The notes: generated by a model from the sequence alone, not told the origin. A stretch of DNA of 35,655 nucleotides from Candidatus Babeliales bacterium (GCA_021735465.1 JAIPGX010000001.1:1-35655); one strand, 5' to 3'; positions 1,264-35,655 are shown, counted from the first letter of the stretch. Numbers and translations: made by a program.

Positions 1264-2324
1264 GATTTTAAACCATCCTCTTGCTCTTTAATAACTTTTT
1301 TTAAATCTAACTCTTTTACATTCATGCCCAAATGAAGACCAAATGCACCAAGAATTTCTTTAACTTCTCTTAATGATTTACGTCCAAAATTCTTAACTTT
1401 TAATAAATCATCTTCAGTTAAATTAACCAAATCTATAACTCTTTTTACACCAGCACTTATCAAGCAATTATGAGATCTGACCGAAAACTCTAATTCATCA
1501 ATTGGTTTTAAAAAGAGCTCAACTGGAAGACCTTTTGTTGGACCTTGAACATCCATTGCGCTAATTTTTTTCTCTTCAGCAATACCCTCTTCTTTAGATA
1601 TGTCATTGAATGGAATTTCTTCTGCATCTAAGAAATGCTCAAATTGCGTTCTCAAAACAGACGTTCCATAGTTAATAATATCCTGAGGATTTATAGCACC
1701 GTTAGTAAAGATGCTCATTATAAGCTTGTCATAATCTATATCTTTACCCACACGAGTTTTTTCTGTATGGTATTCAACACGTTTAACAGGAGAAAACATT
1801 GCATCAACATAAATTCTACCATCTGATTGCAAAGCTTTATTTGCCGGCCACTGTGCAGGTAAATACCCTCTTCCTGTTTCAACAAAAAATTCAATTTCCA
1901 ATACACCATCTGGAGCTAAATGTGCAATAATATGATCTTTATTTATTAATTCTAAATGATCATCTGCTTTAATATCTTCAACTCTTGCAACAGACTGACT
2001 TCCGGAAACAACTAAATTCATTTTTCCTGGTTGGCCAGTTTTGTTTTTAATAATTATACCCTTAATATTGAGTATAACTTGTAAAACATCTTCTATTACG
2101 CCTTTAACTGTAGAAAACTCATTATTAACGTCTTTAATTATAACGCTAGTAACGGCTGAGCCTTCTATTGATGATAAAACCACTCTTCGTAATGCATTCC
2201 CCAATGTAATACCAAAACCTGGTTCCAAAGGTTGAACAACCAATTCACCAAAAGTATTTGTAAGAGTTTTTTTTTCCCAACCTACCTTGGGAAGGATCAA
2301 CGGTTTATATTTCATTTCCTGCAT
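1260..2324 (-). CDS. rpoA: DNA-directed RNA polymerase subunit alpha
   Basis: The alpha NTD and the CTD helix-hairpin-helix (ELEFSVRSHNCLISAGVKRVIDL) are recognisable. The ORF-track start at 2348 is a TTG. ATG at 2324 (or 2315) follows GGAGG (rc of 2329-2333), so the exact start is uncertain by about 10 codons. Confidence 0.93.
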   Translation of the reverse strand: MQEMKYKPLILPKVGWEKKTLTNTFGELVVQPLEPGFGITLGNALRRVVLSSIEGSAVTSVIIKDVNNEFSTVKGVIEDVLQVILNIKGIIIKNKTGQPGKMNLVVSGSQSVARVEDIKADDHLELINKDHIIAHLAPDGVLEIEFFVETGRGYLPAQWPANKALQSDGRIYVDAMFSPVKRVEYHTEKTRVGKDIDYDKLIMSIFTNGAINPQDIINYGTSVLRTQFEHFLDAEEIPFNDISKEEGIAEEKKISAMDVQGPTKGLPVELFLKPIDELEFSVRSHNCLISAGVKRVIDLVNLTEDDLLKVKNFGRKSLREVKEILGAFGLHLGMNVKELDLKKVIKEQEDGLKS

Positions 2325-2382
2325 CAGACCTCCGTACCATTTATTCAAAAATTCAAATTAATTTAAAAATATCAATTATCAA

Positions 2383-3030
2383 TTACTTGGAATACAACTC
2401 AACAATTAAACGTTCCTCAACTGGAATAGTTACATCAGAACGAACAGGTAAGCGTAAAACAACACCCTTACGTTCTTTTTTATCTAATTCCAACCAATCA
2501 GGAACTTTAATGCCAATATTTATTCTTTTATCAACAATAGTTTCAATAAAAACTGTTTTATTTAAAGCTCTTTGAGACAAAGTAATTGCATCGCCTGGCT
2601 TAACCAAATAAGATGGAGTTCTTACTCTTTTTCCATTAACATTAATATGACCATGCACTATCAACTGACGAGCTTGATCCCTGGAAAAAGCCATTTTTAA
2701 TCGAAAAAGAACATTATCTAATCTGCGTTCTAATAAAGAAACTAAATTTTCACCTGTTGAGCCTTTAAATTTAGAAGCTTTTTCAAAAAATCTTCTAAAT
2801 TGTGATTCCAGCACACCATACATTAATTTTGCTTTTTGCTTTTCTTGAAGCTGCTTTCCATATTCTGAAAGCTTTTTTGAACCAGCTTTTTTTCCATGCT
2901 GACCAGGAGTAGGCAAACCTTGTTCTATAGGACACTTTGCCGTTCGACATTTTGCACCCTTCAAGAACAATTTTTCACCAACTTTTCTGCAGCTTCTGCA
3001 ATTTTTGCTAATATCTAGATTACTTGCCAT
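2383..3030 (-). CDS. rpsD: 30S ribosomal protein S4 (Cys4 zinc-finger form)
   Basis: 215 aa with an N-terminal CRSC...CRTAKC cluster and the S4 RNA-binding domain SRDQARQLIVHGHINVNGKRV. It sits between rpsK and rpoA. Confidence 0.95.
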   Translation of the reverse strand: MASNLDISKNCRSCRKVGEKLFLKGAKCRTAKCPIEQGLPTPGQHGKKAGSKKLSEYGKQLQEKQKAKLMYGVLESQFRRFFEKASKFKGSTGENLVSLLERRLDNVLFRLKMAFSRDQARQLIVHGHINVNGKRVRTPSYLVKPGDAITLSQRALNKTVFIETIVDKRINIGIKVPDWLELDKKERKGVVLRLPVRSDVTIPVEERLIVELYSK

Positions 3031-3079
3031 AAAAACCTTTAATCAAAGTAAGTAATTAACTACTTTTATACTTTATATA

Positions 3080-3466
3080 TTAAACTCTACGTTTTTTAGG
3101 AGGCCTACAGCCATTATGAGGCAATGGCGTCACATCCCTTAATAAAGTTACAGTCAAACCAGAAGATTGTAGAGCTCTTACAACAGAATCTCGACCGGAT
3201 CCTGGCCCCTGCATATTTACCTCTACCAATCTGGCACCAAGACCAACCAATTCTTTAGCTAGATTACCAGCTATTTGTGTAGCAGCAAAAGGCGTACCTT
3301 TACGCGCACCTTTAAAACCTAATTGCCCAGAACTTCCACGCATAATAACATCACCATTAGTAGTTGTAATACTTACCAAAGTGTTATTAAAAGTAGATTT
3401 TACATGAGCTACTACAGTATCAATATTTTTCCAACTTTTTTTACTACTTTTCTTTTTATAAGCCAT
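3080..3466 (-). CDS. rpsK: 30S ribosomal protein S11
   Basis: 128 aa, ending in ...[38 protein letters not shown], the characteristic S11 C-terminus. Confidence 0.96.
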
Positions 3467-3491
3467 CTTTACCTCTATATCCTAGACAAGT

Positions 3492-3881
3492 TTATTTTTT
3501 AGTTATTGCCTTTTTTAATGCTACAGCTCCACCTGGACGTCTAGGTCCCTTGCGAGTTCTAGCATTAGTTTTTGTACGTTGTCCTCTGACAGGTAAAGAT
3601 CTCTTATGTCTTGTACCTCTATAAGAACCTATTTCTTGCAATCTTTTAATATTAAGGGTTATTTCTTTTCTTAAATCACCCTCAATTTTGTAATTATCAT
3701 TTATGTATTTTTGAATAGCAGCAACTTGTTCATGAGATAAATCTTTTATACGAATATCTGGACTTACTTTTGTATCAGATAAAATTTCTTGGGATCTAGT
3801 CAAACCTATCCCAAACAAGTATGTTAATCCAATTTCTACACGTTTATTAGCGGGTAAATAAACACCTTCAATACGAGCCAT
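3492..3881 (-). CDS. rpsM: 30S ribosomal protein S13
   Basis: 129 aa. [26 protein letters not shown] is the canonical S13 N-terminus. Confidence 0.96.
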
Positions 3882-3899
3882 GCAAAACCTCTCTAATTA

Positions 3900-4016
3900 T
3901 TAACCTTGACGTTGTTTATGTCTAGGGTTTTTATCACAAATCACTCTAACGATACGTCCTCGTCTTATAACTTTACAATGTTCACAAATTTTTTTTACAG
4001 ATGTGCGTACTTTCAT
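3900..4016 (-). CDS. rpmJ: 50S ribosomal protein L36 (zinc-binding C+ form)
   Basis: Not in the ORF track because it is too short. Hand translation of the reverse complement gives [38 protein letters not shown], 38 aa with CxxC...C...H. It sits in the canonical infA-rpmJ-rpsM position. Confidence 0.93.
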
Positions 4017-4071
4017 AATATCTAATCTTTCAAAACTTAATTAAATTTAAACTAAAATTAACTTAAAATTC

Positions 4072-4296
4072 TTAAACTTTATAACGTGAAATAATTCGCC
4101 CCTTGGTCAAATCATATGGCGAAAGTTCCACGGCTACCTTATCCCCCGGTAATAATTTTATATAATGCATACGCATTTTACCAGAAACATGTGCTAAAAC
4201 CAAATGTTTACCTTCTATTTCTACTTGAAACATAGCATTTGGCAAAGCTTTCATAACCGTACCATCTACAACAATAACATCATTCTTTTTTTTCAT
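4072..4296 (-). CDS. infA: Translation initiation factor IF-1
   Basis: 74 aa with an S1-like OB fold and ...[35 protein letters not shown]. Confidence 0.95.
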
Positions 4297-4321
4297 ACTA
4301 TAAATTACCTTAAATTACCTT

Positions 4322-5068
4322 CTATCTAGTAAAAATTTGTGGGCCATTATTTGTTATTAAAATGGTATCTTCAACATGGGCTGACAAACCACCATCCAAA
4401 GTCTTTGCAGTCCATCCGTCTTTCATTATTTTAACGGCATAATCACCTTGCGTAATCATAGGCTCAATTGCAAGAGTCATGCCTTCTTGCAAAATAGGAC
4501 CTTGACCTTTAACGCCAAAGTTTGGAATATCTGGCTGCTCATGCATACTTTTACCTATACCATGTCCAGCAAAATCCCTCACTACGCCAAAACCAGCTTG
4601 TTCAACTATTGATTGAATACAAGCAGATATATCAGATAGATGATTACCAACTACGGCATACTCAATTGCACAATCTAAAGCAGTTTGCGCAACAAGTGCT
4701 ATTTTTTTCACTTCGTCTCTCACAGATTCTACAAAAAAATACCTTGCCATATCTGCACAATAATTTTTGTAAGAACCAACAACGTCTATTTTAACAAAAT
4801 CCCCAGATTTTAAAATAACTTTATCCGAGGGAACTCCATGAACAATAACATCGTTCAATGAAATACAAGTTGCATATTTGTAACCCGCATAACCCTTACA
4901 TTCTGGCTTCAAACCCAAACTTAGCATTCTTTTTTCAATAAAATTATCAATCTGTAAAGTGTCAATTCCAGGCACTATTAAATCTTTTGTCTCTTGCAAT
5001 ATTTGAGAAAGCAGTTGTCCAGCTTTCTGCATTCGTTCTATTGAAATTTTATTTTTTATTTTTATCAT
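4322..5068 (-). CDS. map: Methionine aminopeptidase type I (M24A)
   Basis: 248 aa with the metal-ligand context DVVGSYKNYCADMARYF, GHGIGKSMHEQPDIPNF and LAIEPM. It shows the ATGA overlap with adk that is typical of the distal spc operon. Confidence 0.92.
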   Translation of the reverse strand: MIKIKNKISIERMQKAGQLLSQILQETKDLIVPGIDTLQIDNFIEKRMLSLGLKPECKGYAGYKYATCISLNDVIVHGVPSDKVILKSGDFVKIDVVGSYKNYCADMARYFFVESVRDEVKKIALVAQTALDCAIEYAVVGNHLSDISACIQSIVEQAGFGVVRDFAGHGIGKSMHEQPDIPNFGVKGQGPILQEGMTLAIEPMITQGDYAVKIMKDGWTAKTLDGGLSAHVEDTILITNNGPQIFTR

Positions 5069-5742
5069 AAAATTAATTTTGATTTAAAATTCTCAAATAG
5101 GTCTAAACTCTTTAAGTTAGTAACTTCTATTTTTTCAACACGAATATTAGAAGAAGCATAAAAATTTAACACTTTTTTACTGGATTCAATAAATTTTTTT
5201 AACCTATTTTTTATATTTTCAAAACTGTCATCAGCTCTCTTAATCAAATCACTTCCACAAACTTCGCAAGATTTATTTTTCAAAAAATTTTCAGAATAAA
5301 CAATTTGACAGTCTTTATTCTGACACAATAATCTAGAAAAAGCCCTTTTAAGAACCTCTTCATCTGATATTATAAGATAAATAATTTTAAAATTAAAATT
5401 CACACCTATTTTATTTAAAAAATCTAAAAAAAGTGTCGCTTGTTTAGCAGTTCTAGGAAATCCATCAAAAATTATTGTTTTTGTTTCAATATTTTTTTTT
5501 GATATTTTTGCTAAAAACCAATCACTAACAACATCAACTATTAAATCATCAGGTATTAAACTTTTATTTTGCGAATATTTCAATATCAGATTACCAATAT
5601 CTGTACCGATTTCAATACTTTTTCTACAAAAATTACCTGCAGAAAAAATTTCAAATGTTCTATCTTTTTTGCACAAATTTGTCAAAGTTCCTTTTCCAGA
5701 ACACGGCGGACCCATTAATGAAATAATATTATTAACGGCCAC
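5065..5742 (-). CDS. adk: Adenylate kinase (divergent; Cys-containing P-loop and Cys4 LID)
   Basis: 225 aa. It carries IISLMGPPCSGKGT (P-loop), FDGFPRT and RADDSFENIKNRL. The LID reads CQNKDC...CEVC. The GTG start at 5742 follows AAGAGGAAG and overlaps the secY end by 11 nt. Confidence 0.85.
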   Translation of the reverse strand: MAVNNIISLMGPPCSGKGTLTNLCKKDRTFEIFSAGNFCRKSIEIGTDIGNLILKYSQNKSLIPDDLIVDVVSDWFLAKISKKNIETKTIIFDGFPRTAKQATLFLDFLNKIGVNFNFKIIYLIISDEEVLKRAFSRLLCQNKDCQIVYSENFLKNKSCEVCGSDLIKRADDSFENIKNRLKKFIESSKKVLNFYASSNIRVEKIEVTNLKSLDLFENFKSKLIL

Positions 5743-7048
5743 TTCTTCCTCTTAATCTACCAGTAGATAAAAAACCTTCGTAACGCCTTTCTATCAAATG
5801 CGTTTCAATTTGTGAAGACATATCAAGAGCAACGCCAATAACAATCAAAAGGCTAATACCACTAAATATTATTGGAAAATTAAAAATATAAGCCAATACA
5901 CTTGGCAAAATAGCCAACGATGCAAGATATATAGCTCCAGGAAAACCTATTCTTGTTAACAAATAATCAAAAAATTCTGCAGTTTTTTTACCCGGACGAA
6001 TCCCAGGAACAAAACCACCCGATTTTCTTATATTATCTGCCAACTCAACCGGATTAAAAATTACAGCAGTATAAAAAAATGCAAAAAATATAATCAACCC
6101 TGCCTGCAAGACATAGAATAAAAAACTATTATAACCAAACCATTGGGATAAAAAAGCCAATGCAGAAAACTTAGACGCAAGCATATTAATTATCATCATT
6201 GGCAATTGTATTATTGCACCAGCAAAAATAACAGGTATAACCCCAGATGGATTTATTTTTAATGGGATATAAGAACTTTGTCCACCATAAACTTTATTCC
6301 CAACAACTCTTTTTGCATATTGTACAGGAACTCTTCGCTCACCACGCTCTAAAAATACAACACACATAATAACAGCAATTGTAATTAATACTAATAAACC
6401 CGCAACCAACGGATCGGTCTGCCCCATTTGGACGTTGTTTATTAATTTAATTATGGCACTAGGCAAACCAACTACTATTCCAGCAAAAATTATCATTGAA
6501 CTACCATTGCCTATACCATGAGAATTTATTTGCTCACCAAGCCACATTATAAACATGGCGCCAACACTAAAAATTAAAACTGAAGTTAATCTAAAACCCC
6601 ATCCAGGATTAATTACAATACCAGGCTGAGAAGCCACAAGTGCAGAAATACCAAATCCTTGAATTATACTTAACCCAAAAGCTAAATATCGCGTATATTG
6701 ATTTATAACTTTACGCCCATATTCGCCTTCTTTTGCTAATTGCTCCAAGGTTGGAACCATAACTGTAAGCAACTGCATCATAATAGAGGAGTTAATATAA
6801 GGAATCATACCTAAGGCAAAAATAGAAAAATTTCTTAACGCTCCTCCTGAAAACAAATCCAAATAAGAAATTAATCCACCAGTAAAACCTGTGCTTAACA
6901 AACCACTTAATGCACTTGTATTTACACCCGGAACAGGAACGTGCGCCCCAAACCTATAAACGGCTAATACCGCAAGGGTAAAAGCCAGTTTTTTTCTTAA
7001 ATCAGCAACAAAAAAAATATTCTTAAAATTGCTAAATTGTACTATCAC
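5732..7048 (-). CDS. secY: Preprotein translocase subunit SecY
   Basis: 438 aa and polytopic, with YRFGAHVPVPGV and GMIPYINSSIMMQLL motifs. The GTG start at 7048 lies 7 nt after AAGGAG. Confidence 0.95.
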   Translation of the reverse strand: MIVQFSNFKNIFFVADLRKKLAFTLAVLAVYRFGAHVPVPGVNTSALSGLLSTGFTGGLISYLDLFSGGALRNFSIFALGMIPYINSSIMMQLLTVMVPTLEQLAKEGEYGRKVINQYTRYLAFGLSIIQGFGISALVASQPGIVINPGWGFRLTSVLIFSVGAMFIMWLGEQINSHGIGNGSSMIIFAGIVVGLPSAIIKLINNVQMGQTDPLVAGLLVLITIAVIMCVVFLERGERRVPVQYAKRVVGNKVYGGQSSYIPLKINPSGVIPVIFAGAIIQLPMMIINMLASKFSALAFLSQWFGYNSFLFYVLQAGLIIFFAFFYTAVIFNPVELADNIRKSGGFVPGIRPGKKTAEFFDYLLTRIGFPGAIYLASLAILPSVLAYIFNFPIIFSGISLLIVIGVALDMSSQIETHLIERRYEGFLSTGRLRGRSGR

Positions 7049-7050
7049 CT

Positions 7051-7509
7051 TTAATCTCCTTGTTCAACTTGAGTTACCTCGACTTTCCCTCCAGCATTCT
7101 GAATAGCTTCAACAGCAGATTTGCTAAATAAATCGGCTTTGACTGTCAATTTTTTATTTAATTGACCATTTCCTAATATTTTTATTAAAAATTTTCTTTT
7201 GCCTTTTATTAAATTTTTTTCTAATAAAGTTTTTTTATTAACTATCTCATCATTATTAAATTTTAATTCTAAATCTTTTAAATTTATTATTAAAACTTCT
7301 TTTTTAAATGAATTAATAAAACCTCTTTTTGGCAATCTTCGAGTCAAAGACATCTGCCCACCCTCAAAGAAAGGCTTTAATTCACCAGATACTCCAGATC
7401 TTGCCTTTTGACCTTTATGTCCACGACAAGAAGTGCCACCCCTGTCTCCGCCCCTACCTATACGTTTTCTTTTCTTAGATGTTGATTCCAAATTATTAAG
7501 CTGCAACAT
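7051..7509 (-). CDS. rplO: 50S ribosomal protein L15
   Basis: MLQLNNLESTSKKRKRIGRGGDRGGTSCRGHKGQKARSG is the canonical L15 start. ATG at 7509 follows GAGG by 6 nt. The ORF-track start (GTG at 7566) would add 19 non-conserved residues lying inside rpsE. Confidence 0.93.
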   Translation of the reverse strand: MLQLNNLESTSKKRKRIGRGGDRGGTSCRGHKGQKARSGVSGELKPFFEGGQMSLTRRLPKRGFINSFKKEVLIINLKDLELKFNNDEIVNKKTLLEKNLIKGKRKFLIKILGNGQLNKKLTVKADLFSKSAVEAIQNAGGKVEVTQVEQGD

Positions 7510-8065
7510 TTTGAACCTCTTCATTATTGTTGGACTTATTAGTGACATCTCTGCCGACAATTTCACTTAATGATTTGCCGCGCATTTTTGCTAACTGTCT
7601 AGCTGATTTCATTGTTCTTAAAGCCTTTACCGTCGCTTTAACAATATTTTGAGGGTTTGAAGATCCAAAGGATTTTGCTAAAACATCTTTAATTCCAGCA
7701 GCATCCATTATAGCTCTTACTGCACCTCCAGCAATTACACCAGTACCCAAACTAGCTGAACGTAATAAAACCTGACTAGAACCATGCTTTGCTTTGAGAG
7801 CAAATGGTATAGTAGTTTTGTACATAGGCACTTTAAACATATCTTTTTTTGCCCTTTTTAAAGCCTTAGCAATAGCAGAGGAAACTTCTCTACTTTTCCC
7901 TAATGCAAATCCAACTTTTCCATTTTTATCTCCAACTACAACAAGAGCTGAAAAAGCAAATCTTCTACCACCCTTTATTACTTTTGCAACACGTCTTACA
8001 TTCAAAACTTTTTCAACGTATTCTTCTGTAGGCATTAATTCTTTTTTAATTCTTGCTTGAGCCAT
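7496..8065 (-). CDS. rpsE: 30S ribosomal protein S5 (with a short C-terminal tail)
   Basis: 189 aa with the dsRBD-like VVVGDKNGKVGFALGKSREV and GTGVIAGGAVRAIMDAAGIKD. The tail ...GRDVTNKSNNNEEVQNVAA overlaps the rplO start by 14 nt. Confidence 0.95.
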   Translation of the reverse strand: MAQARIKKELMPTEEYVEKVLNVRRVAKVIKGGRRFAFSALVVVGDKNGKVGFALGKSREVSSAIAKALKRAKKDMFKVPMYKTTIPFALKAKHGSSQVLLRSASLGTGVIAGGAVRAIMDAAGIKDVLAKSFGSSNPQNIVKATVKALRTMKSARQLAKMRGKSLSEIVGRDVTNKSNNNEEVQNVAA

Positions 8066-8097
8066 ACCAATCTTTCTTAGTTAAAATTCAAATATCT

Positions 8098-8472
8098 TTA
8101 AAATTGCAATCCACTTTCACGTAAACCTTCAGCTAAAGCGCTAACTCTTCCATGATAAAGATATCTTCCTCTATCAAAAAAAACTTTATCAATAGATTTG
8201 CTCAAAGCAATTTTTCCAAGTTCAATACCAACTTTTTTAGCAACTTCTTTTTTATCAGTTTTTTTATCTTTAGTAGTCAAATTAAGAGAAGAAAAACTTG
8301 CTATAGTAGTTTGTGAACTATCATCAATAATTTGAGCATACATATTTTTCAAACTTCTAAAAACACAAATTCTAGGCTTTAAACCTTTACTATTTAGATT
8401 GCCCTTGACTCTATGAACTCTTCGTACAGTTCTTTGTTGAATTTTTTTTTGTGTTTTTTTCTGAATACTCAC
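8098..8472 (-). CDS. rplR: 50S ribosomal protein L18
   Basis: It carries ...RICVFRSLKNMYAQIIDD...FDRGRYLYHGRVSALAEGLRESGLQF. The ORF-track start (8502) is a TTG without an RBS. GTG at 8472 lies 8 nt after GGAAAGG and gives a typical-length protein, so the start remains uncertain. Confidence 0.9.
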   Translation of the reverse strand: MSIQKKTQKKIQQRTVRRVHRVKGNLNSKGLKPRICVFRSLKNMYAQIIDDSSQTTIASFSSLNLTTKDKKTDKKEVAKKVGIELGKIALSKSIDKVFFDRGRYLYHGRVSALAEGLRESGLQF

Positions 8473-10264: not shown

Positions 10265-10585
10265 CTAAAAAGCTTCTTTGCATTTATTACAAATTCTAGC
10301 CTTTTTTTGTTTTTCATCGTTCAAAAATTTAGTTTGTACCCTACAAGCTTTTTTACAAGAAGAACAAACAGGCATTACCTTGCAAAGAGGAAAATAATTT
10401 TCTTCTTTTACAATTTTACTAACTTCACCCTGTTTTCTTGCTTTTACATGACGAGCAACTATAGAAACACCTTTTACTAAAACTTTATCTTTTTTAGTAT
10501 CAATATCTATTACGCTGCCCTGCTTGCCCTTATCTTTACCAGATATAACAAGCACTGTATCATTTTTTTTTACCCTACGTAACAT
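10265..10585 (-). CDS. rplX: 50S ribosomal protein L24 with a Cys-rich C-terminal half
   Basis: 106 aa with the KOW motif [20 protein letters not shown]. The C-terminal part carries six Cys, including CSSC and CNKC. Confidence 0.93.
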
Positions 10586-10617
10586 AATCTTTTACCCATT
10601 TTTATAATTTATTTTTT

Positions 10618-10986
10618 TCACAAAACTTCCGGTGCTAAAGAAACTATTTTTGAAAAACCTTCAGCCCGCAATTCTCTAGCAATAGGACCAAATATGCGAG
10701 TTCCAACCGGTTGTTTTTCTTTGTCAATTACAACAGCCGCATTTTCATCAAACCTTATGTAACTTCCATCATTTCTTCGGGTTTCTTTTCTTGTTCTAAC
10801 TATAACGGCGTTTAATACATCACCCTTTTTAACGGTTCCACCTGGAATAGCTTTTTTCACAGAAACTTTTACAATATCTCCAATATATGCATACCTTTTA
10901 TCGGTACTTCCTGTAACTTGTATAACCATTAATTTTTTTGCACCTGAATTATCAGCTACTTCTAAATAAGTTTGTTTCTGAACCAT
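10618..10986 (-). CDS. rplN: 50S ribosomal protein L14
   Basis: 122 aa. [24 protein letters not shown] is the canonical L14 N-terminus. Confidence 0.97.
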
Positions 10987-26355: not shown

Positions 26356-28716
26356 TTATCCAGCTCTATAAACGGGTGGTCTTTTAAATTTTCTCGCAAA
26401 AGAACCCAAAGATTCAAGTCTAACAAATAAAGAGTAAGAACGCTCGCTTTTCCAATCTCCACACTCTCTATATTTTTTTTCTTCAAATCCAATTGAAGCT
26501 CCCCAACAATGTCCGTGATAGTCTAAACTAACATTATGCGCAAAATCTCTAAGCCCTTCAAAGGGCAAAAAATTAGAGCTTTTAGAAGAATAAAATTGAC
26601 CACTATAAGCAAATCTTAAACTTTTAGATAATGGAAAAGACGTTCTGAAAAAAACAAAATGTGGGATATCTGATAATAATTCTCTTTCTTGCCTTAAAGA
26701 CTCATTCTGATAAAGCGTACCTAGAGTAAAATTAAATTGTCCTAAATTAAAATTCGCACTTATTTGCGATTGCAACAATTTAAAATTCCGCCATTCATAT
26801 TCTTGACTAAAAAACAAACTTATTAAATCAGAATTAACTGATAATTCAAACTTAGGTGGTAAAAAATGTTTTTGACCGGGATAACGTCTTAATGGAAAAA
26901 TGTCAGATTTATTATAAAATTCAACTGCAGTAGAAATATTTAAATCTATATTCAAACTATTAAGATACCAATTATTTCTTAAGTAAAATTCTATTTGATT
27001 TTGTGGATAAATTCTATCCCAATTATCAGAATAAAACCAATTATTTTGATTCTCTTTTAATAAAAAATCCCATTTTAAACTCGGCTGAAAAAAATAATTA
27101 CAAAAAAAATTATTTTCTGTATCTTGCCACTCAATAGAACTTTCTGGAAGATCCCATTCTGCACCTGCACCCAAAAATAAGCGATATTTTTTTTTATTAT
27201 CAGAACTTATTTTAGTCCTGCTTCTGAGTTGTAACATTGGGTTAAAATATAATTTTAAAAATTGCTCTTTAAATCTTAAATTACTTTGTAAATTACCACT
27301 GTAAAAAAAACGTAAAGTATCAGCTTTTGCCAATGGGCGCAAAACAGTTTCTTTTACCAAGCTAGAATTTATATAAAAATTTTCCATTTTTTTTGATTTT
27401 GATAATATTTGATCAACAAAAAAATCATGTTTATAAGAAAATAAATTTTTTAATTTATAAAAAGCAGAATTATGTTCAAAATGAGGTAATAACAAAATCG
27501 TAACTTTATCTTCTACCTCTTTTTTCTTAGAAAAAGTTCCCCATTGATTAACCGTATCTTGTTCAAACGGCAACAAATTAAAAATTTCTCCCTCTTCTTT
27601 TCTATTTAAATTGCTAAATTGCCTAAAAGATGTTTCTTTGCAATCAAGCATAAGTGTATTAAAAGTTCTATTTCCTGTAGATCTAAAAATTAAAGAATTA
27701 TAAAAAGTATCATCAAGACCTTTTGTTATATCAAAAAATTGATAACCTATTCTTTTATCTGTTCCAAAATCTACTCTTGCTAAAGAATATAATTTTTTAT
27801 TGGGTAAAAATTTGATATCAAAAAAAGAAAAATCTTTACCACTAATCCAATATCTTTGATCAGTTTTTTTTACGATTTTATCCCCCTTTTTTACAAATGC
27901 ATTTTTTTCTATAGCATATTGCGCATTAACCAAAGTAAATTTTTCAGGATGTCTAACCCATCTAAAATCATTAGAAAAAGCAATACCTCTTTTAACTTTC
28001 CAATCTACCCCTAAAGTACTATCACATCTAGGCGCAATATACCAATAATAATCTTGTCTAATGCCAAAACCCAGTTCGTCATCATATGAAATTCGTGGCA
28101 ACAAAAAACCGGACTGTGATCTATTCTGAACAGGTAACACCATTGTTGGCAAAATAAAAAAAGGCAACTGACCAATTTTAAATATAAGACCATTAAATCT
28201 AATTAAATAATTATTATGTAGAACAGCTTGCCTTGCTATAATCGACCAATGAGGTATTGGCCCATCACAGGGCGTATAACAAATATCTTCCATCTTCCAC
28301 TGATTTTCTCCAAATTTTTCTGCTCTTGCTGATGTTATATAGCCTTGACTAACTTGCATTCTTACATTGTCTGCATAACCAGTTTTATTATCTAAATTTA
28401 AAAAAAACTTGTCAGCTAAAATCAAAAAATCACTATTCTCTATAACCACACTTGAACAAGTTTCATCTTTTTTTTTTGCAATCAAAATTTGTTTTTCTTT
28501 ATCGATTTCAACCTCATCTGCCCAGATATGCAACTTTTGATCAACCCAAACATCAACATTTTCATTCAAAATTAATTTGTTAAAATTTTCTATTTTTTGC
28601 TGAACGCTATTAACTTTTATAATTTTTACAGATTCGACAAAATCTCTTACAAAAGAATACGATTTTGATATAAAAAAAATAAAAAAGAATAAAACTAATA
28701 CTAAAAATTTATGCAT
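26356..28716 (-). CDS. lptD: LPS-assembly outer membrane protein LptD (OstA family)
   Basis: 786 aa with signal peptide MHKFLVLVLFFFIFFISKSYS and an OstA-like N-domain. YTPCDGPIPHWSIIARQAVLHNNY...LPFFILPTMVLPVQNRSQSGFLLPRISYDDELGFGI matches the LptD junction region. It has a long beta-barrel-like C-terminus. Confidence 0.85.
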   Translation of the reverse strand: MHKFLVLVLFFFIFFISKSYSFVRDFVESVKIIKVNSVQQKIENFNKLILNENVDVWVDQKLHIWADEVEIDKEKQILIAKKKDETCSSVVIENSDFLILADKFFLNLDNKTGYADNVRMQVSQGYITSARAEKFGENQWKMEDICYTPCDGPIPHWSIIARQAVLHNNYLIRFNGLIFKIGQLPFFILPTMVLPVQNRSQSGFLLPRISYDDELGFGIRQDYYWYIAPRCDSTLGVDWKVKRGIAFSNDFRWVRHPEKFTLVNAQYAIEKNAFVKKGDKIVKKTDQRYWISGKDFSFFDIKFLPNKKLYSLARVDFGTDKRIGYQFFDITKGLDDTFYNSLIFRSTGNRTFNTLMLDCKETSFRQFSNLNRKEEGEIFNLLPFEQDTVNQWGTFSKKKEVEDKVTILLLPHFEHNSAFYKLKNLFSYKHDFFVDQILSKSKKMENFYINSSLVKETVLRPLAKADTLRFFYSGNLQSNLRFKEQFLKLYFNPMLQLRSRTKISSDNKKKYRLFLGAGAEWDLPESSIEWQDTENNFFCNYFFQPSLKWDFLLKENQNNWFYSDNWDRIYPQNQIEFYLRNNWYLNSLNIDLNISTAVEFYNKSDIFPLRRYPGQKHFLPPKFELSVNSDLISLFFSQEYEWRNFKLLQSQISANFNLGQFNFTLGTLYQNESLRQERELLSDIPHFVFFRTSFPLSKSLRFAYSGQFYSSKSSNFLPFEGLRDFAHNVSLDYHGHCWGASIGFEEKKYRECGDWKSERSYSLFVRLESLGSFARKFKRPPVYRAG

Positions 28717-31124: not shown

Positions 31125-31181
31125 TTAAATAAACTTTTTCAAATCAAGATTTTTTAAAAAAAATAATTTTGGAGAAAATTA

Positions 31182-31250
31182 ATGCACAAAATTTTAAAAT
31201 TAATTTTAACTTTATGTTTTATAATAAATATTAATACAAAAATTTTTGCT
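31182..31250 (+). other. Predicted Sec signal peptide of the giant protein
   Basis: MHKILKLILTLCFIININTKIFA|VDYGS has a basic n-region, a hydrophobic core and an I-F-A cleavage-type site. Confidence 0.6.
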
Positions 31251-34200
31251 GTCGATTACGGTTCAGACACTGCTGTTGCCATTACACCTGTCACTATGGC
31301 AACAGGCCAAGATAACATAATAAAATCTTTTGGCTGGGCAAAACATGGATTAACATTTGAAGATGCTATAACTACAGTTACTTTTCAGTCTGCTTTTCCT
31401 ATTGCTGGCCCCATAGATATGCAAGGTGGAAAATTTTATCTTGATACAGATTTAGTCTTAAGTAATACCGCAAAATTTCTATCCCTTGGTTCTATAGAAG
31501 GTTATAATCACATGCTCTCTCTTTCGGAGTCTACTACCAATATGCGATTTATTGGAACTATAGGTGATAGTGCAACTTTAAATTTAATTGCACGAGCAAC
31601 TGAAGGCAATACTATTAATTCAGTTGATTGGTCATATGATAATAATTATATTGTTGCTGGAGCAGATCAAATAGGTGGACCAGGAAATAATTTATTTATA
31701 TATTCATATATAAACGACATACTTACTAAAGTTAATACCACAGGCCTAAACTCAGCTGTATTTTCAACTCGCTGGCACCCTTCTTCATATTATTTAGCAA
31801 TAGGGTCAGATAGGGTCAATGCTGAACTAAGAATTTATTCTTTTACACCACCCAACACAACATCTTTAGAACAATCATATAATGCCGGAGATAATATATA
31901 TTCCACAATTTGGCACCCAACAGGTAATTTTTTAGCCTCTGGAGGTATTTCAAATACAGATACAATAACAATTTTTACTTTTTCTGCCGGAACAATAACA
32001 AGAAGAACGGGAGTCAATAAAACACAAGATATTTCATCAGATACTCTTGTTTGGGCACCATCAGGAAACGGTAATTATTTAGCCTCAGGCTTTACAACAG
32101 ATGGAACAAATCCAGAATTAATTGTTTATTTATTTAATAACACAACACCATCTTTAACTTCAACTGCACAAAAATTAATAAATCAAAGTATAACTGCGCT
32201 AGATTGGTCACCAACAGGAACATATTTGGCTGTAGGCCTTTCTGGCGGGAATAATAGATTAAGAATTTACGAAAGAAATATTAGTAGAGGAGCAGCATCT
32301 TCTTATGGCTATTTAGAAGAGGCAACAAGACTTGATGAAACTCAAACTGTAAAATCTGTGAACTGGTCAAGTGATGGAACAAAGCTCAGTGTAGGATTAG
32401 AAAATAGTACAGGAACAGAATTCAGATTTTATTCCTTTTCTACATCACCAACTCCAACCATAAGCCTTTTAGCTGGAGTAGAATCATCTACAAATATAAA
32501 TTCCACAAAATTCTCTAACGACGATATGTACATCGCAAATGGCGATTCTTCAAATTTTGTTTCCGTATATAAACCTATTTTAACAGGTTCATTTTATTTT
32601 AAAGACTTAAACATATTTTTGTATAACAATGTTTTATTACAAAGTCCTTTAACATTTGAAGGCAACTGCTCTATAGATGCAAGAGGCAAAACCTTAGAAT
32701 TATCAGGAAATGCAAGCTTAAATATAAAACCTAATTCTACAACATCAATTAAAAGAACTGATTTAAAATTAGATAATCCTGGAACTTTTGCGTTAGAAAG
32801 CAAAAGTTCAGTCTTAAAATTTGAAGACTCAATAATAGAATTAAGTTCTGATGTGACTATTGGAGATGGAGCTCTAGGGATAGATGGGGACTTGGTTATA
32901 ACGGGACCATATACATTAAATTATTCAACCGCAACTACATCAACAATAAACGAATTTTCTTCTTTAAAAATAGAAAATGAAGCAACTTTGGCTATAGGAA
33001 GAAATCCATCAATATCAAGGCAACCGTTAGATTTTATAGATGACACTTCTTTTTTAATATTAGATAATGCAACACTTAATATAACAAATTCCGGACTTAA
33101 TATAAAAAAAGGTAAACTAAAAACTTTTAACAAATCTATCATAGATATTGATTCTCCTGATAATGAGTATGGCTTAATACTTGGTGACGGAACCTTAGAA
33201 AATGATGCAACTTTAGAAATAAAATCAGGATCTGAATTATTACTAAAAAATGGCCCTATAGTAATGAATACTCTTGGCAATGAAAATTTAAATTTTTTCG
33301 CAGACTCTTCAAAATTAACTTTTAGTGATTATCAATCAAGCCTACAAGTTCAACGAAGATTAAATATAAGCACTGGTACAATTTCACCTAAAACACAAGA
33401 TAATATTTCAGTATCAGATAATGCGTATTTAAGCGTTAATAATATAAAATTTGTAGATCAATCAACTAAAGAAGAATTCTTTTTAACAGGTACCATTCAA
33501 AATGCAAATAATATAATTTTAGATCAAGACGATCTTTTAACTTTAAATGCTGGTAATTTATCAAAAACAATTACCGTATCAAGGAACAATAACACAATAC
33601 GTGGAGTAGGCGGTTTTACTGGTGAATTAAATTTAACGTACAGCATGGCTAATTTAATATTTAATTTGAGCCCAATTAATAATAACAATATAGATTTAAA
33701 TAAGAGCAAAATAATTTTAGAGAACGACTCTAATTTTTTAAGAGATTTCATTTTTACAAACAGTGGCACCGTTGATTTAACATATTACAAATTATCTTTT
33801 GGGGCACAAGATGCCTTACATACAAGTACTATATACTGGCAAGGTACAGAGGGAAAAATAGAATTAAATTCAAAATTATCTTTAACTGGCACATGGACAT
33901 TTAGAGGCAATTTTGTAATTTACGGAAATAACAACACATTAGATTTAGGCAGTAGCGGTCAAATTTTTTTAGAAGGTGATTCAAGTGTACAATTTAAAGA
34001 TTTAGCAATTCAAAATTTAAAAAACACAAATTTTAAATGCACTACAAATCGAGGACAAATAACTTTAAATAATTGCATTTTATCTCAAACTAATGACTTT
34101 AATTTTCCATATGGTTCAATAGGATTTATGAATCAAAACTATTTACAAGCAAAAAATAGTTCAAGTTCAGATTTTACTTTTTATTATGATACAACACAAA

Positions 34201-35655
34201 CAAGTACAATAAAATCAATTAGTAATCTACAAATATCAAATGGCATAACATTCAAGCTTGGCAAAAAAAATTCAGCCTCTACTGTGCAACCATTGGAATT
34301 TGAAGATGCTTCTTCAATTCTAGATTTAAATGGATGTACTCTACATGTCACATCTTCTGGTATGCAATTATTAAGAGGCGAAATGCGTATATCAGATAAT
34401 TCTACTTTAGATATAGACGCTGCCAACTATGATACGGGCTTTATTATTGGTGATGGCACAACTTCAGATAATGATTTTATTATAAGAATCGGTGGTGGTA
34501 ATAAATTAATAATAAATACAGGAAAACTTTTTTATAACAATGTAAATTCAGAAAATAAAATTATATTCACAAGTTTAGCTTCTGCAATACGAGTTGAATC
34601 TGATTTAGGCCTTGTCGCCAAAAAAAATCTAAAAATAGTAAATGGTACTTTATTATTTCCACTTGCTGATGCAATACAAACTTTCGATGATTCATTTTTT
34701 GAACAAGATAATATTACGCATATACATGATACCTTTTATGCTGTTCACAAATCAAAAGCGCAACTTAAGAAAAAAGCCGGCTCGTTCTTTCCTACTGAAT
34801 ATTATATTTTTGATACAGGTTATTTTTATAGTTTAGAGGGAGACGCAAGGGTCCCATTAAATGTAGAAGCTGGAACTACTACAATAGGTGGATCTGGATT
34901 AATAAGTGCTACAACTACAATCAAAGATGCTAATGCAAGTATTAATACAAATTCAACAGCAAACTATCAAAATAATATAATTTTAAATGGTGGCACTCTT
35001 TCTTTAGATTCAGATTTAAAATTCATAGGAAATAAAAAATTATCAGGCTCAGGCATTATCAATTTGAATAATAGCAGACTTTCTTTTGGAACAGACGAAC
35101 TAACTTTCTCAGATCCTATTTATTGGAATTCTTCTTCTGGAATAGATTTAAATGCAAAAACAACTTTGAGTACAACATGGACAATTAATGGTATTTATAA
35201 TTTAAATGGTCACGGTAATATTCTTGATATGAGCTCTGGTGGCCGCATAGAAATTAGACCAGACTCAACTTTATTCTTAACAGATATAGTTATTAAAGGC
35301 CTTGGCCATGGTTATGGTAGATTATTACCATTGGCAGATTCAGCACAAATAAATATGTCCAATGTTTATATTGAACTTGATAACGATTATTCTACAACAA
35401 TTGGTGGCATCTATGTCGAAGGGCCTACAACCTTTGGTCTTAAAAATTATAATTGGACATTTGATCAACAAGCTTCTTTGACTGTAGATGGCATAACTTT
35501 ATGGCAAGATCCATTAGATAAAATAAATTATGGCAAAATTAAATTTGGCTCAGGGACTTTATCAAAATATTTATCTTTGACAGAAAGTGGCACTATAAAA
35601 ACTTGTGCAAATCTTGATATTATTTCAACAAATACTCAGGCCCTTGCTATTGACA
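31182..35655 (+). CDS. Giant secreted/surface protein (3' end outside the window): signal peptide, 7-bladed WD40-like beta-propeller, and at least 3 tandem ~420-aa beta-helix-like modules
   Basis: I hand-translated the whole frame. ATG at 31182 has GGAG at 31171-31174 and an in-frame TAA at 31164 upstream. There is no stop through 35654, giving at least 1,491 codons. It is absent from the ORF track, presumably because it has no stop inside the window. Only short antisense or out-of-frame ORFs are listed there. Confidence 0.9.
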   Translation, partial: MHKILKLILTLCFIININTKIFAVDYGSDTAVAITPVTMATGQDNIIKSFGWAKHGLTFEDAITTVTFQSAFPIAGPIDMQGGKFYLDTDLVLSNTAKFLSLGSIEGYNHMLSLSESTTNMRFIGTIGDSATLNLIARATEGNTINSVDWSYDNNYIVAGADQIGGPGNNLFIYSYINDILTKVNTTGLNSAVFSTRWHPSSYYLAIGSDRVNAELRIYSFTPPNTTSLEQSYNAGDNIYSTIWHPTGNFLASGGISNTDTITIFTFSAGTITRRTGVNKTQDISSDTLVWAPSGNGNYLASGFTTDGTNPELIVYLFNNTTPSLTSTAQKLINQSITALDWSPTGTYLAVGLSGGNNRLRIYERNISRGAASSYGYLEEATRLDETQTVKSVNWSSDGTKLSVGLENSTGTEFRFYSFSTSPTPTISLLAGVESSTNINSTKFSNDDMYIANGDSSNFVSVYKPILTGSFYFKDLNIFLYNNVLLQSPLTFEGNCSIDARGKTLELSGNASLNIKPNSTTSIKRTDLKLDNPGTFALESKSSVLKFEDSIIELSSDVTIGDGALGIDGDLVITGPYTLNYSTATTSTINEFSSLKIENEATLAIGRNPSISRQPLDFIDDTSFLILDNATLNITNSGLNIKKGKLKTFNKSIIDIDSPDNEYGLILGDGTLENDATLEIKSGSELLLKNGPIVMNTLGNENLNFFADSSKLTFSDYQSSLQVQRRLNISTGTISPKTQDNISVSDNAYLSVNNIKFVDQSTKEEFFLTGTIQNANNIILDQDDLLTLNAGNLSKTITVSRNNNTIRGVGGFTGELNLTYSMANLIFNLSPINNNNIDLNKSKIILENDSNFLRDFIFTNSGTVDLTYYKLSFGAQDALHTSTIYWQGTEGKIELNSKLSLTGTWTFRGNFVIYGNNNTLDLGSSGQIFLEGDSSVQFKDLAIQNLKNTNFKCTTNRGQITLNNCILSQTNDFNFPYGSIGFMNQNYLQAKNSSSSDFTFYYDTTQTSTIKSISNLQISNGITFKLGKKNSASTVQPLEFEDASSILDLNGCTLHVTSSGMQLLRGEMRISDNSTLDIDAANYDTGFIIGDGTTSDNDFIIRIGGGNKLIINTGKLFYNNVNSENKIIFTSLASAIRVESDLGLVAKKNLKIVNGTLLFPLADAIQTFDDSFFEQDNITHIHDTFYAVHKSKAQLKKKAGSFFPTEYYIFDTGYFYSLEGDARVPLNVEAGTTTIGGSGLISATTTIKDANASINTNSTANYQNNIILNGGTLSLDSDLKFIGNKKLSGSGIINLNNSRLSFGTDELTFSDPIYWNSSSGIDLNAKTTLSTTWTINGIYNLNGHGNILDMSSGGRIEIRPDSTLFLTDIVIKGLGHGYGRLLPLADSAQINMSNVYIELDNDYSTTIGGIYVEGPTTFGLKNYNWTFDQQASLTVDGITLWQDPLDKINYGKIKFGSGTLSKYLSLTESGTIKTCANLDIISTNTQALAID
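31611..32576 (+). other. Seven WD40-like (WD40/PD40-type) propeller blades within the giant protein
   Basis: The repeating pattern is xxW(S/H/A)PxGxYLAxG...(L/F)RIYxF. Conserved Trp codons lie at 31629, 31773, 31911, 32052, 32205 and 32364, with Phe at 32511. The spacing is 46-53 codons. Confidence 0.7.
32640..35655 (+). repeat. Tandem in-frame protein-level repeats, about 1.25-1.29 kb (415-429 aa) per module, at least 3 copies
   Basis: The motif T(W)TFxGNxxIxGxGNxLDLSxxGxIxIxxxS recurs with its aligned Thr codon at 32652, 33897 and 35181. G(L/F)I(L/I)GDGTxxND recurs at 33183 and 34449. LS(F)G recurs at 33801 and 35088. Confidence 0.7.

What the first reader, a model, noticed from the sequence alone, without database searches (positions are those of the whole stretch)
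31182..35655. Unlisted giant ORF (at least 1,491 codons, open at the window edge) encoding a secreted propeller-plus-repeat-array protein of no family I can name
The supplied ORF track shows nothing real on the + strand here. Hand translation of the frame starting at ATG 31182 (GGAG 7 nt upstream, in-frame TAA at 31164) runs to 35654 without a stop. The product begins with a Sec-type signal peptide (MHKILKLILTLCFIININTKIFA|VD). It continues with about 120 aa, seven WD40-like blades, and then long Asn/Thr/Ser/Gly/Leu/Ile-rich segments. Those segments have the alternating hydrophobic pattern typical of parallel beta-helix adhesin passengers. It is the only large non-housekeeping gene in the window. 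It lies divergent from yidC and close to lptD, lpxC and rseP, which are envelope biogenesis genes. I could not find diagnostic motifs of the obvious giant-protein families: no clear chlamydial Pmp GGA[ILV]/FxxN pairs, no RTX GGxGxD nonapeptides, and no Ig/cadherin-like periodicity. A secreted eukaryote-like propeller fused to a giant repetitive array is a plausible host- or prey-contact surface factor.
Basis: partly seen in the sequence, partly recalled or inferred. Interest (0 to 1): 0.85.

Follow-up and report, generated by a model that had tools for sequence, protein, structure and literature searches.

The report
Secreted beta-helix giant with inserted propeller
The open reading frame is a real but cut-off gene of a Babeliales (Dependentiae/TM6) intracellular bacterium, encoding a probably exported protein built from ~400-residue beta-helix modules with a WD40 propeller inserted into the first one; it belongs to a very large, unnamed protein family and is probably a surface or secreted host-contact fibre, though that function is only inferred.

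Summary
ATG 31182 opens a stop-free frame of 1,491 codons running off the window. It is an NCBI "hypothetical protein, partial" of a Candidatus Babeliales MAG. Complete orthologs are 1,782-1,997 aa.

The product is not a propeller followed by a loose repeat array. It has a Sec-type signal peptide followed by ~400-aa modules that AlphaFold2 models as beta-solenoids (pLDDT 93.6). Module 1 is split at one fixed position by a canonical 7-bladed WD40 propeller (aa 136-466). Modules 2 and 3 follow. The contig breaks where a variable "NSNAI" tandem repeat begins. Orthologs add a last module and then stop, with no autotransporter barrel.

Neither Pfam nor NCBIfam covers the module, but a profile finds 2,746 representative clusters, 2 to 14 modules long. 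Every member that carries a phylum-level organism label is Dependentiae/TM6. Family genes often lie in same-strand clusters. "Eukaryote-like" and the link to envelope genes are not supported.

The most likely role is a Sec-exported, extracellular or surface host-contact fibre, a functional analogue of chlamydial Pmps. Localisation and function remain untested. I rate it a new variant of a known kind, with moderate interest.

The parts
31171..31174 (+). Shine-Dalgarno-like GGAG, 7 nt upstream of the start codon
   Evidence: Read directly from the sequence.
31182..31250 (+). Start codon and probable Sec signal peptide (aa 1-23, MHKILKLILTLCFIININTKIFA)
   Evidence: The leader varies while the following xYGSDT motif is conserved in orthologs. 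Heuristic only; no SignalP run.
31251..31586 (+). Module 1, N-terminal part (aa 24-135), matching roughly the first quarter of the module profile (up to HMM position ~90)
   Evidence: jackhmmer/hmmsearch: aa 33-~135 match the N-terminal part of the module profile (from HMM position ~9-11 to the junction at ~86-100). Class A paralogs have the same module uninterrupted at aa ~35-415.
31587..32579 (+). Seven-bladed WD40 beta-propeller (aa 136-466) inserted into module 1
   Evidence: Pfam WD40 54.6 bits. AF2 model pLDDT 88.7, pTM 0.86. Foldseek: Ciao1 6tbl_F E=6.5e-15, TM 0.85, rmsd 2.8 A. Same insertion site in 22 of 26 propeller-bearing family members evaluated.
32580..33464 (+). Module 1, remainder (aa 467-761), matching module HMM positions ~90-377
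   Evidence: AF2 all-beta with short strands.
33546..34733 (+). Module 2, complete (aa 789-1184), a beta-solenoid
   Evidence: HMM match 2-396 at E=9e-151. AF2 pLDDT 93.6, pTM 0.92. Foldseek hits are only right-handed parallel beta-helix proteins, none close.
34836..35597 (+). Module 3, short form (aa 1219-1472, module HMM positions ~7-230) with the most conserved stretch of the protein (NWTFDQ...DG[VI]TLWxDPL)
35598..35655 (+). Onset of the variable 'NSNAI' tandem-repeat linker; the ORF is cut by the contig end
   Evidence: L001 continues ...IDIRHNSNTIVAID and is then cut. The contigs of the orthologs in L009 and L010 also end inside this repeat array. Orthologs carry 0-15 copies.

Best explanation
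The ORF encodes the first ~80 % of a ~1,800-2,000-aa exported protein of a Babeliales (Dependentiae) bacterium.

Shown: a Sec-type leader; then a chain of ~400-aa beta-solenoid modules (M1, M2, a short M3, and in orthologs a final M4); a canonical 7-bladed WD40 propeller inserted into M1 at a position conserved across the family; and a variable-number NSNAI repeat between M3 and M4. The protein is one member of a large, lineage-associated paralogous family that is modular (2-14 modules, with or without the propeller) and often encoded in same-strand gene clusters.

Inferred: after Sec export the protein is released or displayed outside the cell, possibly through the type II secretion system that all TM6 genomes carry. 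The stacked beta-helix modules would act as a rigid stalk. The propeller near the N-terminal end would be the ligand-binding head that contacts a host (protist) surface or vacuolar component. Variation in module number, NSNAI copy number and paralog content would give length and specificity variation. This resembles how chlamydial Pmps or autotransporter passengers work, but without their barrel anchor.
For: ORF, start and leader.

Organism and orthologs.

Module definition and split M1.

Beta-solenoid fold at high confidence, with only beta-helix neighbours (lyases, tailspikes, VacA p55, Vag8, Hbp, SRRP).

Propeller fold, and a confident joint model of propeller plus helix (pTM 0.86 over 742 aa).

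Only glycines are invariant across 30 module copies, as expected for a structural rather than catalytic repeat.

Family size and modularity. Minimal ~690-aa 'one split module plus propeller' proteins. Paralog clusters.

Native composition.

Literature: a T2SS is present in all TM6 genomes, and many signal-peptide proteins of Dependentiae are regarded as host-directed (PMC4776705; PMC6561590).

Geometry, my inference from the ~40 strands per module: roughly 13-18 rungs, or 6-9 nm, per module. That would give a rod of 20-30 nm if the modules stack. This is about the width I recall for a Gram-negative periplasm (textbook figure, not checked here), so a rod that long sits more naturally outside the cell.
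Against: No experiment or omics data bear on expression or localisation. The signal peptide was judged by eye, not by a predictor. No anchor (barrel, lipobox, sortase or CTD signal) and no dedicated transporter or usher gene was found in the orthologs or next to family genes, so how the protein would stay on the surface is unknown. The structural neighbours are weak (best E=0.02, TM ~0.3), and the top ones are polysaccharide lyases. The 3' end of this particular gene is missing. Coaxial stacking of modules was not modelled.
Confidence: 0.55

Rival explanations
1. It is a secreted effector rather than a surface fibre. After Sec/T2SS export it is released into the host vacuole or cytosol, where the WD40 propeller acts as a scaffold that mimics or hijacks host WD40-dependent complexes. 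The beta-helix modules would serve as a stable carrier.
For: The Dependentiae literature treats signal-peptide proteins with protein-interaction repeats (ankyrin, WD40, LRR, TPR) as likely host-directed effectors. No membrane anchor was found. The propeller is of the canonical WD40 type.
Against: Most family members (122 of the top 150) have no propeller at all, so the conserved core of the family is the beta-helix rod, which is typical of extracellular structural or adhesive proteins. The sizes (up to 4,562 aa) are atypical for translocated effectors. No T3SS/T4SS is described in the TM6 papers read here.
Confidence: 0.2
2. It is a glycan-active enzyme, or an array of such enzymes: the beta-helix modules are pectate-lyase-fold polysaccharide lyases or hydrolases that degrade host or prey surface polysaccharide, with the propeller as a carbohydrate- or protein-binding module.
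For: The top Foldseek neighbours of module 2 are polysaccharide lyases and depolymerase tailspikes (RbmB 9ozd E=0.02, PL6 lyases, FdlA, K64 tailspike).
Against: The similarity is weak (TM ~0.3, identity 6-13 %) and the adhesin/autotransporter passengers in the same list score comparably. The module profile finds no solved structure by sequence. No Pfam Beta_helix or Pectate_lyase hit was found. The only invariant residues across 30 module copies are two glycines, with no conserved Asp/Glu/Lys/Arg. Tandem arrays of 2-14 modules are not how such enzymes are usually built.
Confidence: 0.1
3. It is an envelope-resident structural protein, such as a periplasmic or outer-membrane-associated scaffold or an S-layer-like coat, rather than a host-contact factor.
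For: It has a signal peptide but no recognised secretion or anchoring signal. The high copy number and abundance of the family would suit a coat protein. An S-layer protein (RsaA) appears far down the fold-match list.
Against: The paralogs vary greatly in length and number between genomes, which fits diversifying surface or host-interaction families better than a conserved lattice. The RsaA match is negligible (E=1.2, TM 0.14). The inferred rod length equals or exceeds the periplasmic width I recall from textbooks (not checked here).
Confidence: 0.1
4. It is an assembly artefact or a decaying pseudogene: a long open frame produced by AT-rich repetitive sequence.
For: The gene is truncated at a contig end, and repeats break the assembly.
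Against: Identical sequence occurs in independent assemblies. Full-length intact orthologs at 33-72 % identity exist in many MAGs. AF2 models are confident. A 1,491-codon stop-free frame in 31 % GC DNA is far beyond what chance would give.
Confidence: 0.02

Closest known systems
Chlamydial polymorphic membrane proteins (Pmp; type Va autotransporters with Pmp repeats)
   Same: A lineage-associated, multi-copy paralogous family of Sec-exported beta-helical proteins in obligate intracellular bacteria, variable in number and length. This is the closest functional analogy.
   Different: No GGA[ILV]/FxxN motif enrichment (0 GGA[ILV]; 6 FxxN against ~7 expected). No Pmp, Pmp_M or autotransporter Pfam hit in the window protein or in the full-length ortholog. 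The repeat unit is a ~400-aa module, not short tetrapeptide repeats. There is a WD40 insertion. No sequence homology was detected.
Autotransporter / two-partner-secretion passengers (pertactin, Hbp, VacA p55, Vag8, FHA)
   Same: Same fold class: these proteins appear among the structural neighbours of module 2 (2qv3, 7akv, 3ak5). They also have a signal peptide and an elongated adhesin-like shape.
   Different: The matches are weak (E 0.4-2, TM 0.25-0.28). Full-length orthologs end in another module without a beta-barrel. No TPS domain reaches threshold (the best hit, in a stand-alone member, has E=0.038). No TpsB-like neighbour was seen.
Pectate-lyase-fold enzymes and phage tailspikes (RbmB, PL6 alginate lyases, FdlA, K64/HK620/Sf6 tailspikes)
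   Same: Right-handed parallel beta-helix; these are the best Foldseek hits.
   Different: TM is only ~0.3, there is no sequence-profile match, and no conserved catalytic residues occur across modules. Here the modules form tandem arrays.
Canonical 7-bladed WD40 domains (Ciao1, TLE1/Groucho, G-beta, RACK1; prokaryotic WD40 of Thermomonospora, 5yzv)
   Same: The propeller passes the Pfam WD40 threshold and superposes with TM up to 0.85 at rmsd 2.8 A.
   Different: Identity is only 12-19 %. The blades seen in the sequence end in hydrophobic-Tyr/Phe-x-Phe/Tyr-type motifs (e.g. IYSY, IYSF) rather than the Trp-Asp dipeptide that I recall gives WD40 its name (blade sequences; the canonical motif is from memory). 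Here the domain lies inside an exported beta-helix module, a combination that no PDB match covered (matches span only ~340-360 columns).

Membership tests
WD40 repeat / 7-bladed beta-propeller | Sequence match to Pfam PF00400 above the gathering score | tested here: met
   54.6 bits against a cut-off of 27, E=1.1e-14. Only 2 of the blades are detected individually.
WD40 repeat / 7-bladed beta-propeller | Seven-bladed propeller fold | tested here: met
   AF2 model pLDDT 88.7. Foldseek to Ciao1, TLE1, G-beta, RACK1 and 5yzv with E ~1e-13 to 1e-15 and target TM 0.7-0.85.
Chlamydial Pmp family | Repeated GGA[ILV] and FxxN motifs (Pfam PF02415) | tested here: not met
   GGA[ILV] 0 (expected 0.1); FxxN 6 (expected 7.2 +/- 2.6). 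No PF02415 hit at E<=1.
Classical (type Va) autotransporter | C-terminal 12-stranded beta-barrel translocator (PF03797) | tested here: not met
   The window protein lacks its C-terminus, so it was tested on the full-length 72 % ortholog P0002: no autotransporter hit at E<=1. Its C-terminal ~320 aa are another copy of the module.
Two-partner secretion TpsA (FHA-like) | N-terminal TPS domain (PF05860) and an adjacent TpsB transporter gene | tested here: not met
   No TPS hit in the window protein or P0002; only a sub-threshold E=0.038 in the stand-alone member P0018. No POTRA/ShlB-type neighbour appears in the Pfam-annotated gene lists of L003-L007 or among the ten flanking ORFs of L005/L011/L013-L015/L018/L021 that were scanned.
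RTX proteins | GGxGxD nonapeptide repeats | tested here: not met
   0 occurrences; no Pfam hit.
Pectin-lyase-like right-handed beta-helix superfamily | Right-handed three-sheet parallel beta-helix fold; Pfam Beta_helix/Pectate_lyase match | tested here: inconclusive
   All Foldseek neighbours have this fold, but the best has E=0.02, probability 0.80 and TM ~0.3. No Pfam Beta_helix hit was found.
Trimeric autotransporter adhesins (YadA-like), considered for the NSNAI repeat | Hep_Hag/HIM/YadA head-stalk motifs and a YadA anchor | tested here: not met
   The NSNAI arrays of P0003 and P0007 give no such Pfam hit at E<=1.
Unnamed Dependentiae ~400-aa beta-solenoid module family (defined here) | Significant match to the module profile built from 30 copies (A1), in tandem copies after a signal peptide | tested here: met
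   The window protein matches four times (E=2e-25 for the N-terminal fragment; 5e-64 to 9e-151 for the other three matches). It is recovered as P0001 among 2,746 representatives.

The most novel reading that the evidence does not exclude
This family could be the principal host-attachment or invasion apparatus of Dependentiae. That would make it a previously unrecognised class of secreted beta-helical fibres that reach the cell surface without an autotransporter barrel or TpsB partner. A WD40 propeller grafted into a rung loop of the first module would be the receptor-binding head, and module number and NSNAI repeat number would tune reach and specificity to different protist hosts.
Probability: 0.3. 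Interest if true: 0.7.

Novelty: new variant of a known kind. Interest (0 to 1): 0.5.

Why it matters
Dependentiae (TM6, 'Babelota') are widespread obligate parasites of protists. The comparative-genomics and isolate papers I read discuss ankyrin and other repeat proteins as candidate host-interaction factors, but none describes how these bacteria recognise and enter hosts.

A family of at least 2,700 sequence clusters of large signal-peptide proteins is the kind of gene set that usually underlies host contact and host range, as the Pmps do in Chlamydia. It is present in several copies per genome, is built from a domain missing from Pfam and NCBIfam, and is annotated almost everywhere only as 'hypothetical protein'.

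Defining the module and the propeller-insertion variant would do three things. It would give annotators a new domain model. It would give experimentalists working with Babela, Vermiphilus or Chromulinavorax concrete candidates. It would also provide a structurally unusual example of a WD40 domain nested in a beta-helix.

It is not a new principle of biology, and nothing about its function has been demonstrated.

Tried and rejected
1. Extending the contig. The neighbouring yidC product was looked up in other assemblies. L001 adds only 12 codons and is also cut, and L002 is shorter. An exact-match scan of JGI metagenome contigs with the last 59 nt found nothing. The 3' end of this gene was not recovered.

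2. Plain self-BLASTP of the protein gave no off-diagonal hits at E<=1e-3. The repeats became visible only with window-vs-family phmmer and jackhmmer.

3. A genome-collection scan with the module alignment A1 failed because A1 has no sufficiently conserved stretch. It was repeated with the ortholog alignment A2.

4. The module profile found no relative among PDB sequences. The viral structure library gave no meaningful match.

5. Pfam and NCBIfam gave nothing for the modules, the NSNAI repeats, or stand-alone and giant family members.

6. I searched for a conserved partner gene (transporter, usher, anchor) beside family genes. Neighbours are housekeeping genes or unrelated unknowns. The TPR gene that overlaps the P0002 ortholog is not conserved elsewhere.

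7. A functional link to yidC/lptD/lpxC was rejected. It is lineage synteny only.

8. The recent horizontal transfer / 'eukaryote-like' origin was not supported by composition or by the fold matches.

9. Per-region conservation did not single out the propeller as more constrained than the modules.

10. Literature searches for this family in Dependentiae (WD40, beta-helix, giant genes, adhesin) found only generic mentions of WD40 and propeller proteins.

11. Organism labels for further family members could not be obtained. Most carry no name, and a few carry spurious automated labels.

Full report
**1. The observation.** The frame from ATG 31182 to the window end (35655) translates into 1,491 codons without a stop. 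No other start codon lies between the stop and the ATG.

The protein is on record as 'hypothetical protein K9L05_00220, partial [Candidatus Babeliales bacterium]' on a contig of exactly the window's length. An independent Logan assembly of run SRR12088348 (L001) carries an identical sequence and extends it by only 12 codons before it too ends. GC content (30.7 %) and GC3 (0.17) equal those of neighbouring housekeeping genes. The ORF is therefore real, native and truncated only by assembly.

**2. Orthologs and the missing end.** Complete relatives of 1,782-1,997 aa exist at 33-72 % identity (P0002-P0007). A scan of species-representative genomes found 16 loci. Seven records are labelled Babeliales, Dependentiae or TM6. 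The other nine are labelled 'uncultured Pseudomonadota'. At least two of those nine (L009, L010) have ORFs of the same sizes and order as this window's yidC, recR and lptD-like genes upstream of the family gene, so I regard their label as doubtful.

The window protein ends, in L001, with ...IDIRHNSNTIVAID. In orthologs this is where a tandem 'NSNAI'-type repeat begins, present in 0 to about 15 copies. The contigs of two other orthologs (L009 at 59 % identity, and L010) also terminate inside this repeat. The repeat is thus the likely cause of the assembly break.

After the repeat, orthologs carry one more module of ~300-320 aa and then stop. No autotransporter barrel, sorting signal or other Pfam domain is found there. 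An exact-match scan of JGI metagenome contigs did not recover the 3' end of this gene.

**3. Anatomy.** Plain self-BLAST showed nothing. Window-against-family phmmer and an iterated HMM revealed a ~400-aa module present about four times.

- Module 2 (aa 789-1184) is complete.
- Module 3 (aa 1219-1472) contains only the first ~230 profile positions.
- Aa ~33-135 match the N-terminal part of the profile, up to about position 90, and aa ~467-761 match positions ~90-377.

Module 1 is therefore split, and the WD40 region (aa 136-466) lies in the gap. Three observations support an insertion rather than a chance resemblance.

- The majority class of family members (122 of the top 150 representatives) has the same first module uninterrupted at aa ~35-415.
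- In 22 of 26 propeller-bearing members evaluated, the profile breaks and resumes at the same position, ~86-100.
- Proteins of ~690-770 aa that consist only of leader, module start, propeller and module remainder are common.

A second arrangement also exists, with several propellers placed after a module truncated at profile position ~278 (P0008, P0072, P0140, P0143, P0165).

**4. Folds.** AlphaFold2 with a 30-copy module alignment models module 2 at pLDDT 93.6 and pTM 0.92, as an all-beta structure of about 40 short strands.

Foldseek against the PDB returns almost exclusively right-handed parallel beta-helix proteins: the RbmB, PL6 and FdlA lyases, AlgG, phage tailspikes, VacA p55, Vag8, Hbp and the SRRP adhesin. 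The best E-value is 0.02 and TM is about 0.3. The module profile finds no relative among PDB sequences. The fold class is therefore beta-solenoid, but the module is not a recognisable member of any solved family. Its handedness could not be inspected.

The N-terminal unit (aa 24-765) is modelled at pLDDT 88.7 and pTM 0.86, which suggests a defined propeller-helix arrangement. Its PDB matches are 7-bladed WD40 domains (Ciao1 with E=6.5e-15, TM 0.85 and rmsd 2.8 A; TLE1; G-beta; RACK1). A prokaryotic WD40 (5yzv) follows at TM 0.82. All matches cover only ~340-360 columns, which is the propeller alone.

Pfam recognises only WD40-type families, and NCBIfam recognises nothing. Across 30 module copies the only invariant residues are two glycines.

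**5. The family.** A profile of the module scored against 1.84 billion representative proteins finds 2,746 with E<=1e-3 and 1,762 with E<=1e-30. Among the 122 propeller-free members of the top 150 hits, lengths step with module number: ~830 aa with 2 modules (24 proteins), ~1,250 aa with 3 (53), ~1,660 aa with 4 (30) and ~2,050 aa with 5 (11). Across the whole list lengths reach 4,562 aa with 14 matched stretches.

Stand-alone modules of 358-423 aa also exist. Most N-termini that start with Met pass a crude signal-peptide heuristic (109 of 136). Members that carry an organism label are Dependentiae or TM6. Names are 'hypothetical protein' or spurious automated labels.

Family genes form same-strand clusters. 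Examples are 792/513/2,704/1,180 aa in L014, similar sets in L015 and L016, and two propeller-bearing giants in tandem in L005 and L011. The window itself contains only this one member.

**6. Context.** The divergent yidC, recR, a 786-aa protein with sub-threshold LptD similarity, pepP, pyrG, rplM, lpxC and an M50 peptidase are confirmed. The same order occurs next to the orthologs P0002 and P0003. L009 and L010 have upstream ORFs of matching sizes in the same order, though their products were not individually identified. More distant family genes lie beside a Glu/Gln-tRNA synthetase gene, mutS or unknown genes.

The TPR gene that overlaps the stop codon of P0002 is not conserved elsewhere. 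No transporter, usher or anchor partner was found in the ORFs I checked. The envelope-gene neighbourhood is therefore shared ancestry, not a functional clue.

**7. Mechanism.** Shown: a leader with Sec-type features; a chain of beta-solenoid modules; a WD40 propeller nested in the first one; a variable repeat linker; and membership of a large paralogous family.

Inferred: export through Sec, followed by release or display outside the outer membrane. The type II secretion system reported in all TM6 genomes (PMC4776705) is a possible route. The stacked modules would form a stalk. I estimate 6-9 nm per module from the strand count, giving a rod of 20-30 nm if the modules are coaxial. The propeller would serve as a binding head for a host surface or vacuolar ligand. 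Paralog, module-number and NSNAI-number variation would provide diversity.

This is how chlamydial Pmps and autotransporter passengers are thought to work. Membership of those families fails on every defining feature tested. I give this functional reading about 0.55. The rivals are a released effector (0.2), a glycan-active enzyme (0.1), an envelope or coat protein (0.1) and an artefact or pseudogene (0.02).

**8. Literature.** Papers on TM6/Dependentiae genomes and isolates mention WD40 and other propeller proteins only in general lists of eukaryote-type interaction domains. They do not describe a beta-helix module family or giant genes.

**9. Verdict.** The main corrections are these:

- The propeller is an insertion inside the first of several ~400-aa modules.
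- The protein is a member of a very large uncharacterised family rather than an orphan.
- 'Eukaryote-like' and the envelope-gene link are unsupported.

It is best classed as a new variant of a known kind (secreted beta-helical repeat proteins). The domain nesting is unusual, and the module is unannotated by Pfam and NCBIfam and, among members with an organism label, confined to Dependentiae. Interest is moderate at 0.5. It is useful for understanding and annotating Dependentiae host interaction, but its function is wholly inferred.

Noticed in passing
window 26356-28716 (-): A 786-aa protein with no Pfam hit at E<=0.001 and only sub-threshold N-terminal similarity to NCBIfam LptD models (E=2.9e-26, 92 bits against a cut-off of 683). 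An ORF of the same size keeps the same position in the P0002 and P0003 loci and in L009/L010. It is probably a very divergent LptD.
   Followed up: partly
window 35598-35655; L001; L009 ~10440-10745; L010 ~10440-10699: Three independent assemblies of orthologous genes all end inside the 'NSNAI' tandem-repeat array. Copy number varies from 0 to ~15 among orthologs. The repeat has no Pfam match, and its structure and role are unknown.
   Followed up: partly
L006 4801-11304 / L007 7488-13991: The stop-to-stop frame of the P0003 ortholog is 2,168 codons, but the called protein has 1,997 aa and starts with Leu inside the propeller. Its N-terminus (leader plus first part of module 1) seems to be mis-called.
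   Followed up: no
L011 1295-2902 (+) and L021 10939-12594 (+): Two unknown proteins of 536 and 552 aa with signal-peptide-like N-termini are 32 % identical (E=7e-88), and both lie next to family genes. They have no Pfam domain. They could be an occasional partner or just neighbours.
   Followed up: partly
P0008, P0072, P0140, P0143, P0165 (family members elsewhere): A second architecture exists. One or more WD40-like propellers (several in P0008) follow a module truncated at profile position ~278, and in P0008 these are combined with NSNAI arrays. The propeller therefore behaves as a movable cassette within the family.
   Followed up: partly
L003 15534-17648 (+): In the 72 % ortholog locus a 704-aa TPR protein overlaps the stop codon of the giant gene by 8 nt, which suggests an operon. 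It is absent downstream of the P0003 ortholog. Whether it follows the window gene cannot be seen.
   Followed up: partly
window 32921-33280 (-): A 119-codon antisense ORF with a TTG start lies inside the gene. It is most likely a chance frame in AT-rich DNA.
   Followed up: no
family N-termini (window 31251-31270 and homologs): A Gly-Ser pair is conserved a few residues after the proposed signal-peptide cleavage site across class A, class B and minimal members (xYGSDT, xKGSQ, xIGSNT). G4 is invariant and S5 nearly so in alignment A4. It could be a processing or sorting motif, or just the first strand of the fold.
   Followed up: no
L019 ~1864-8334: The family gene in this MAG contig is split into three ORFs around a run of unknown bases. 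This is probably an assembly or scaffolding problem rather than a real disruption.
   Followed up: no
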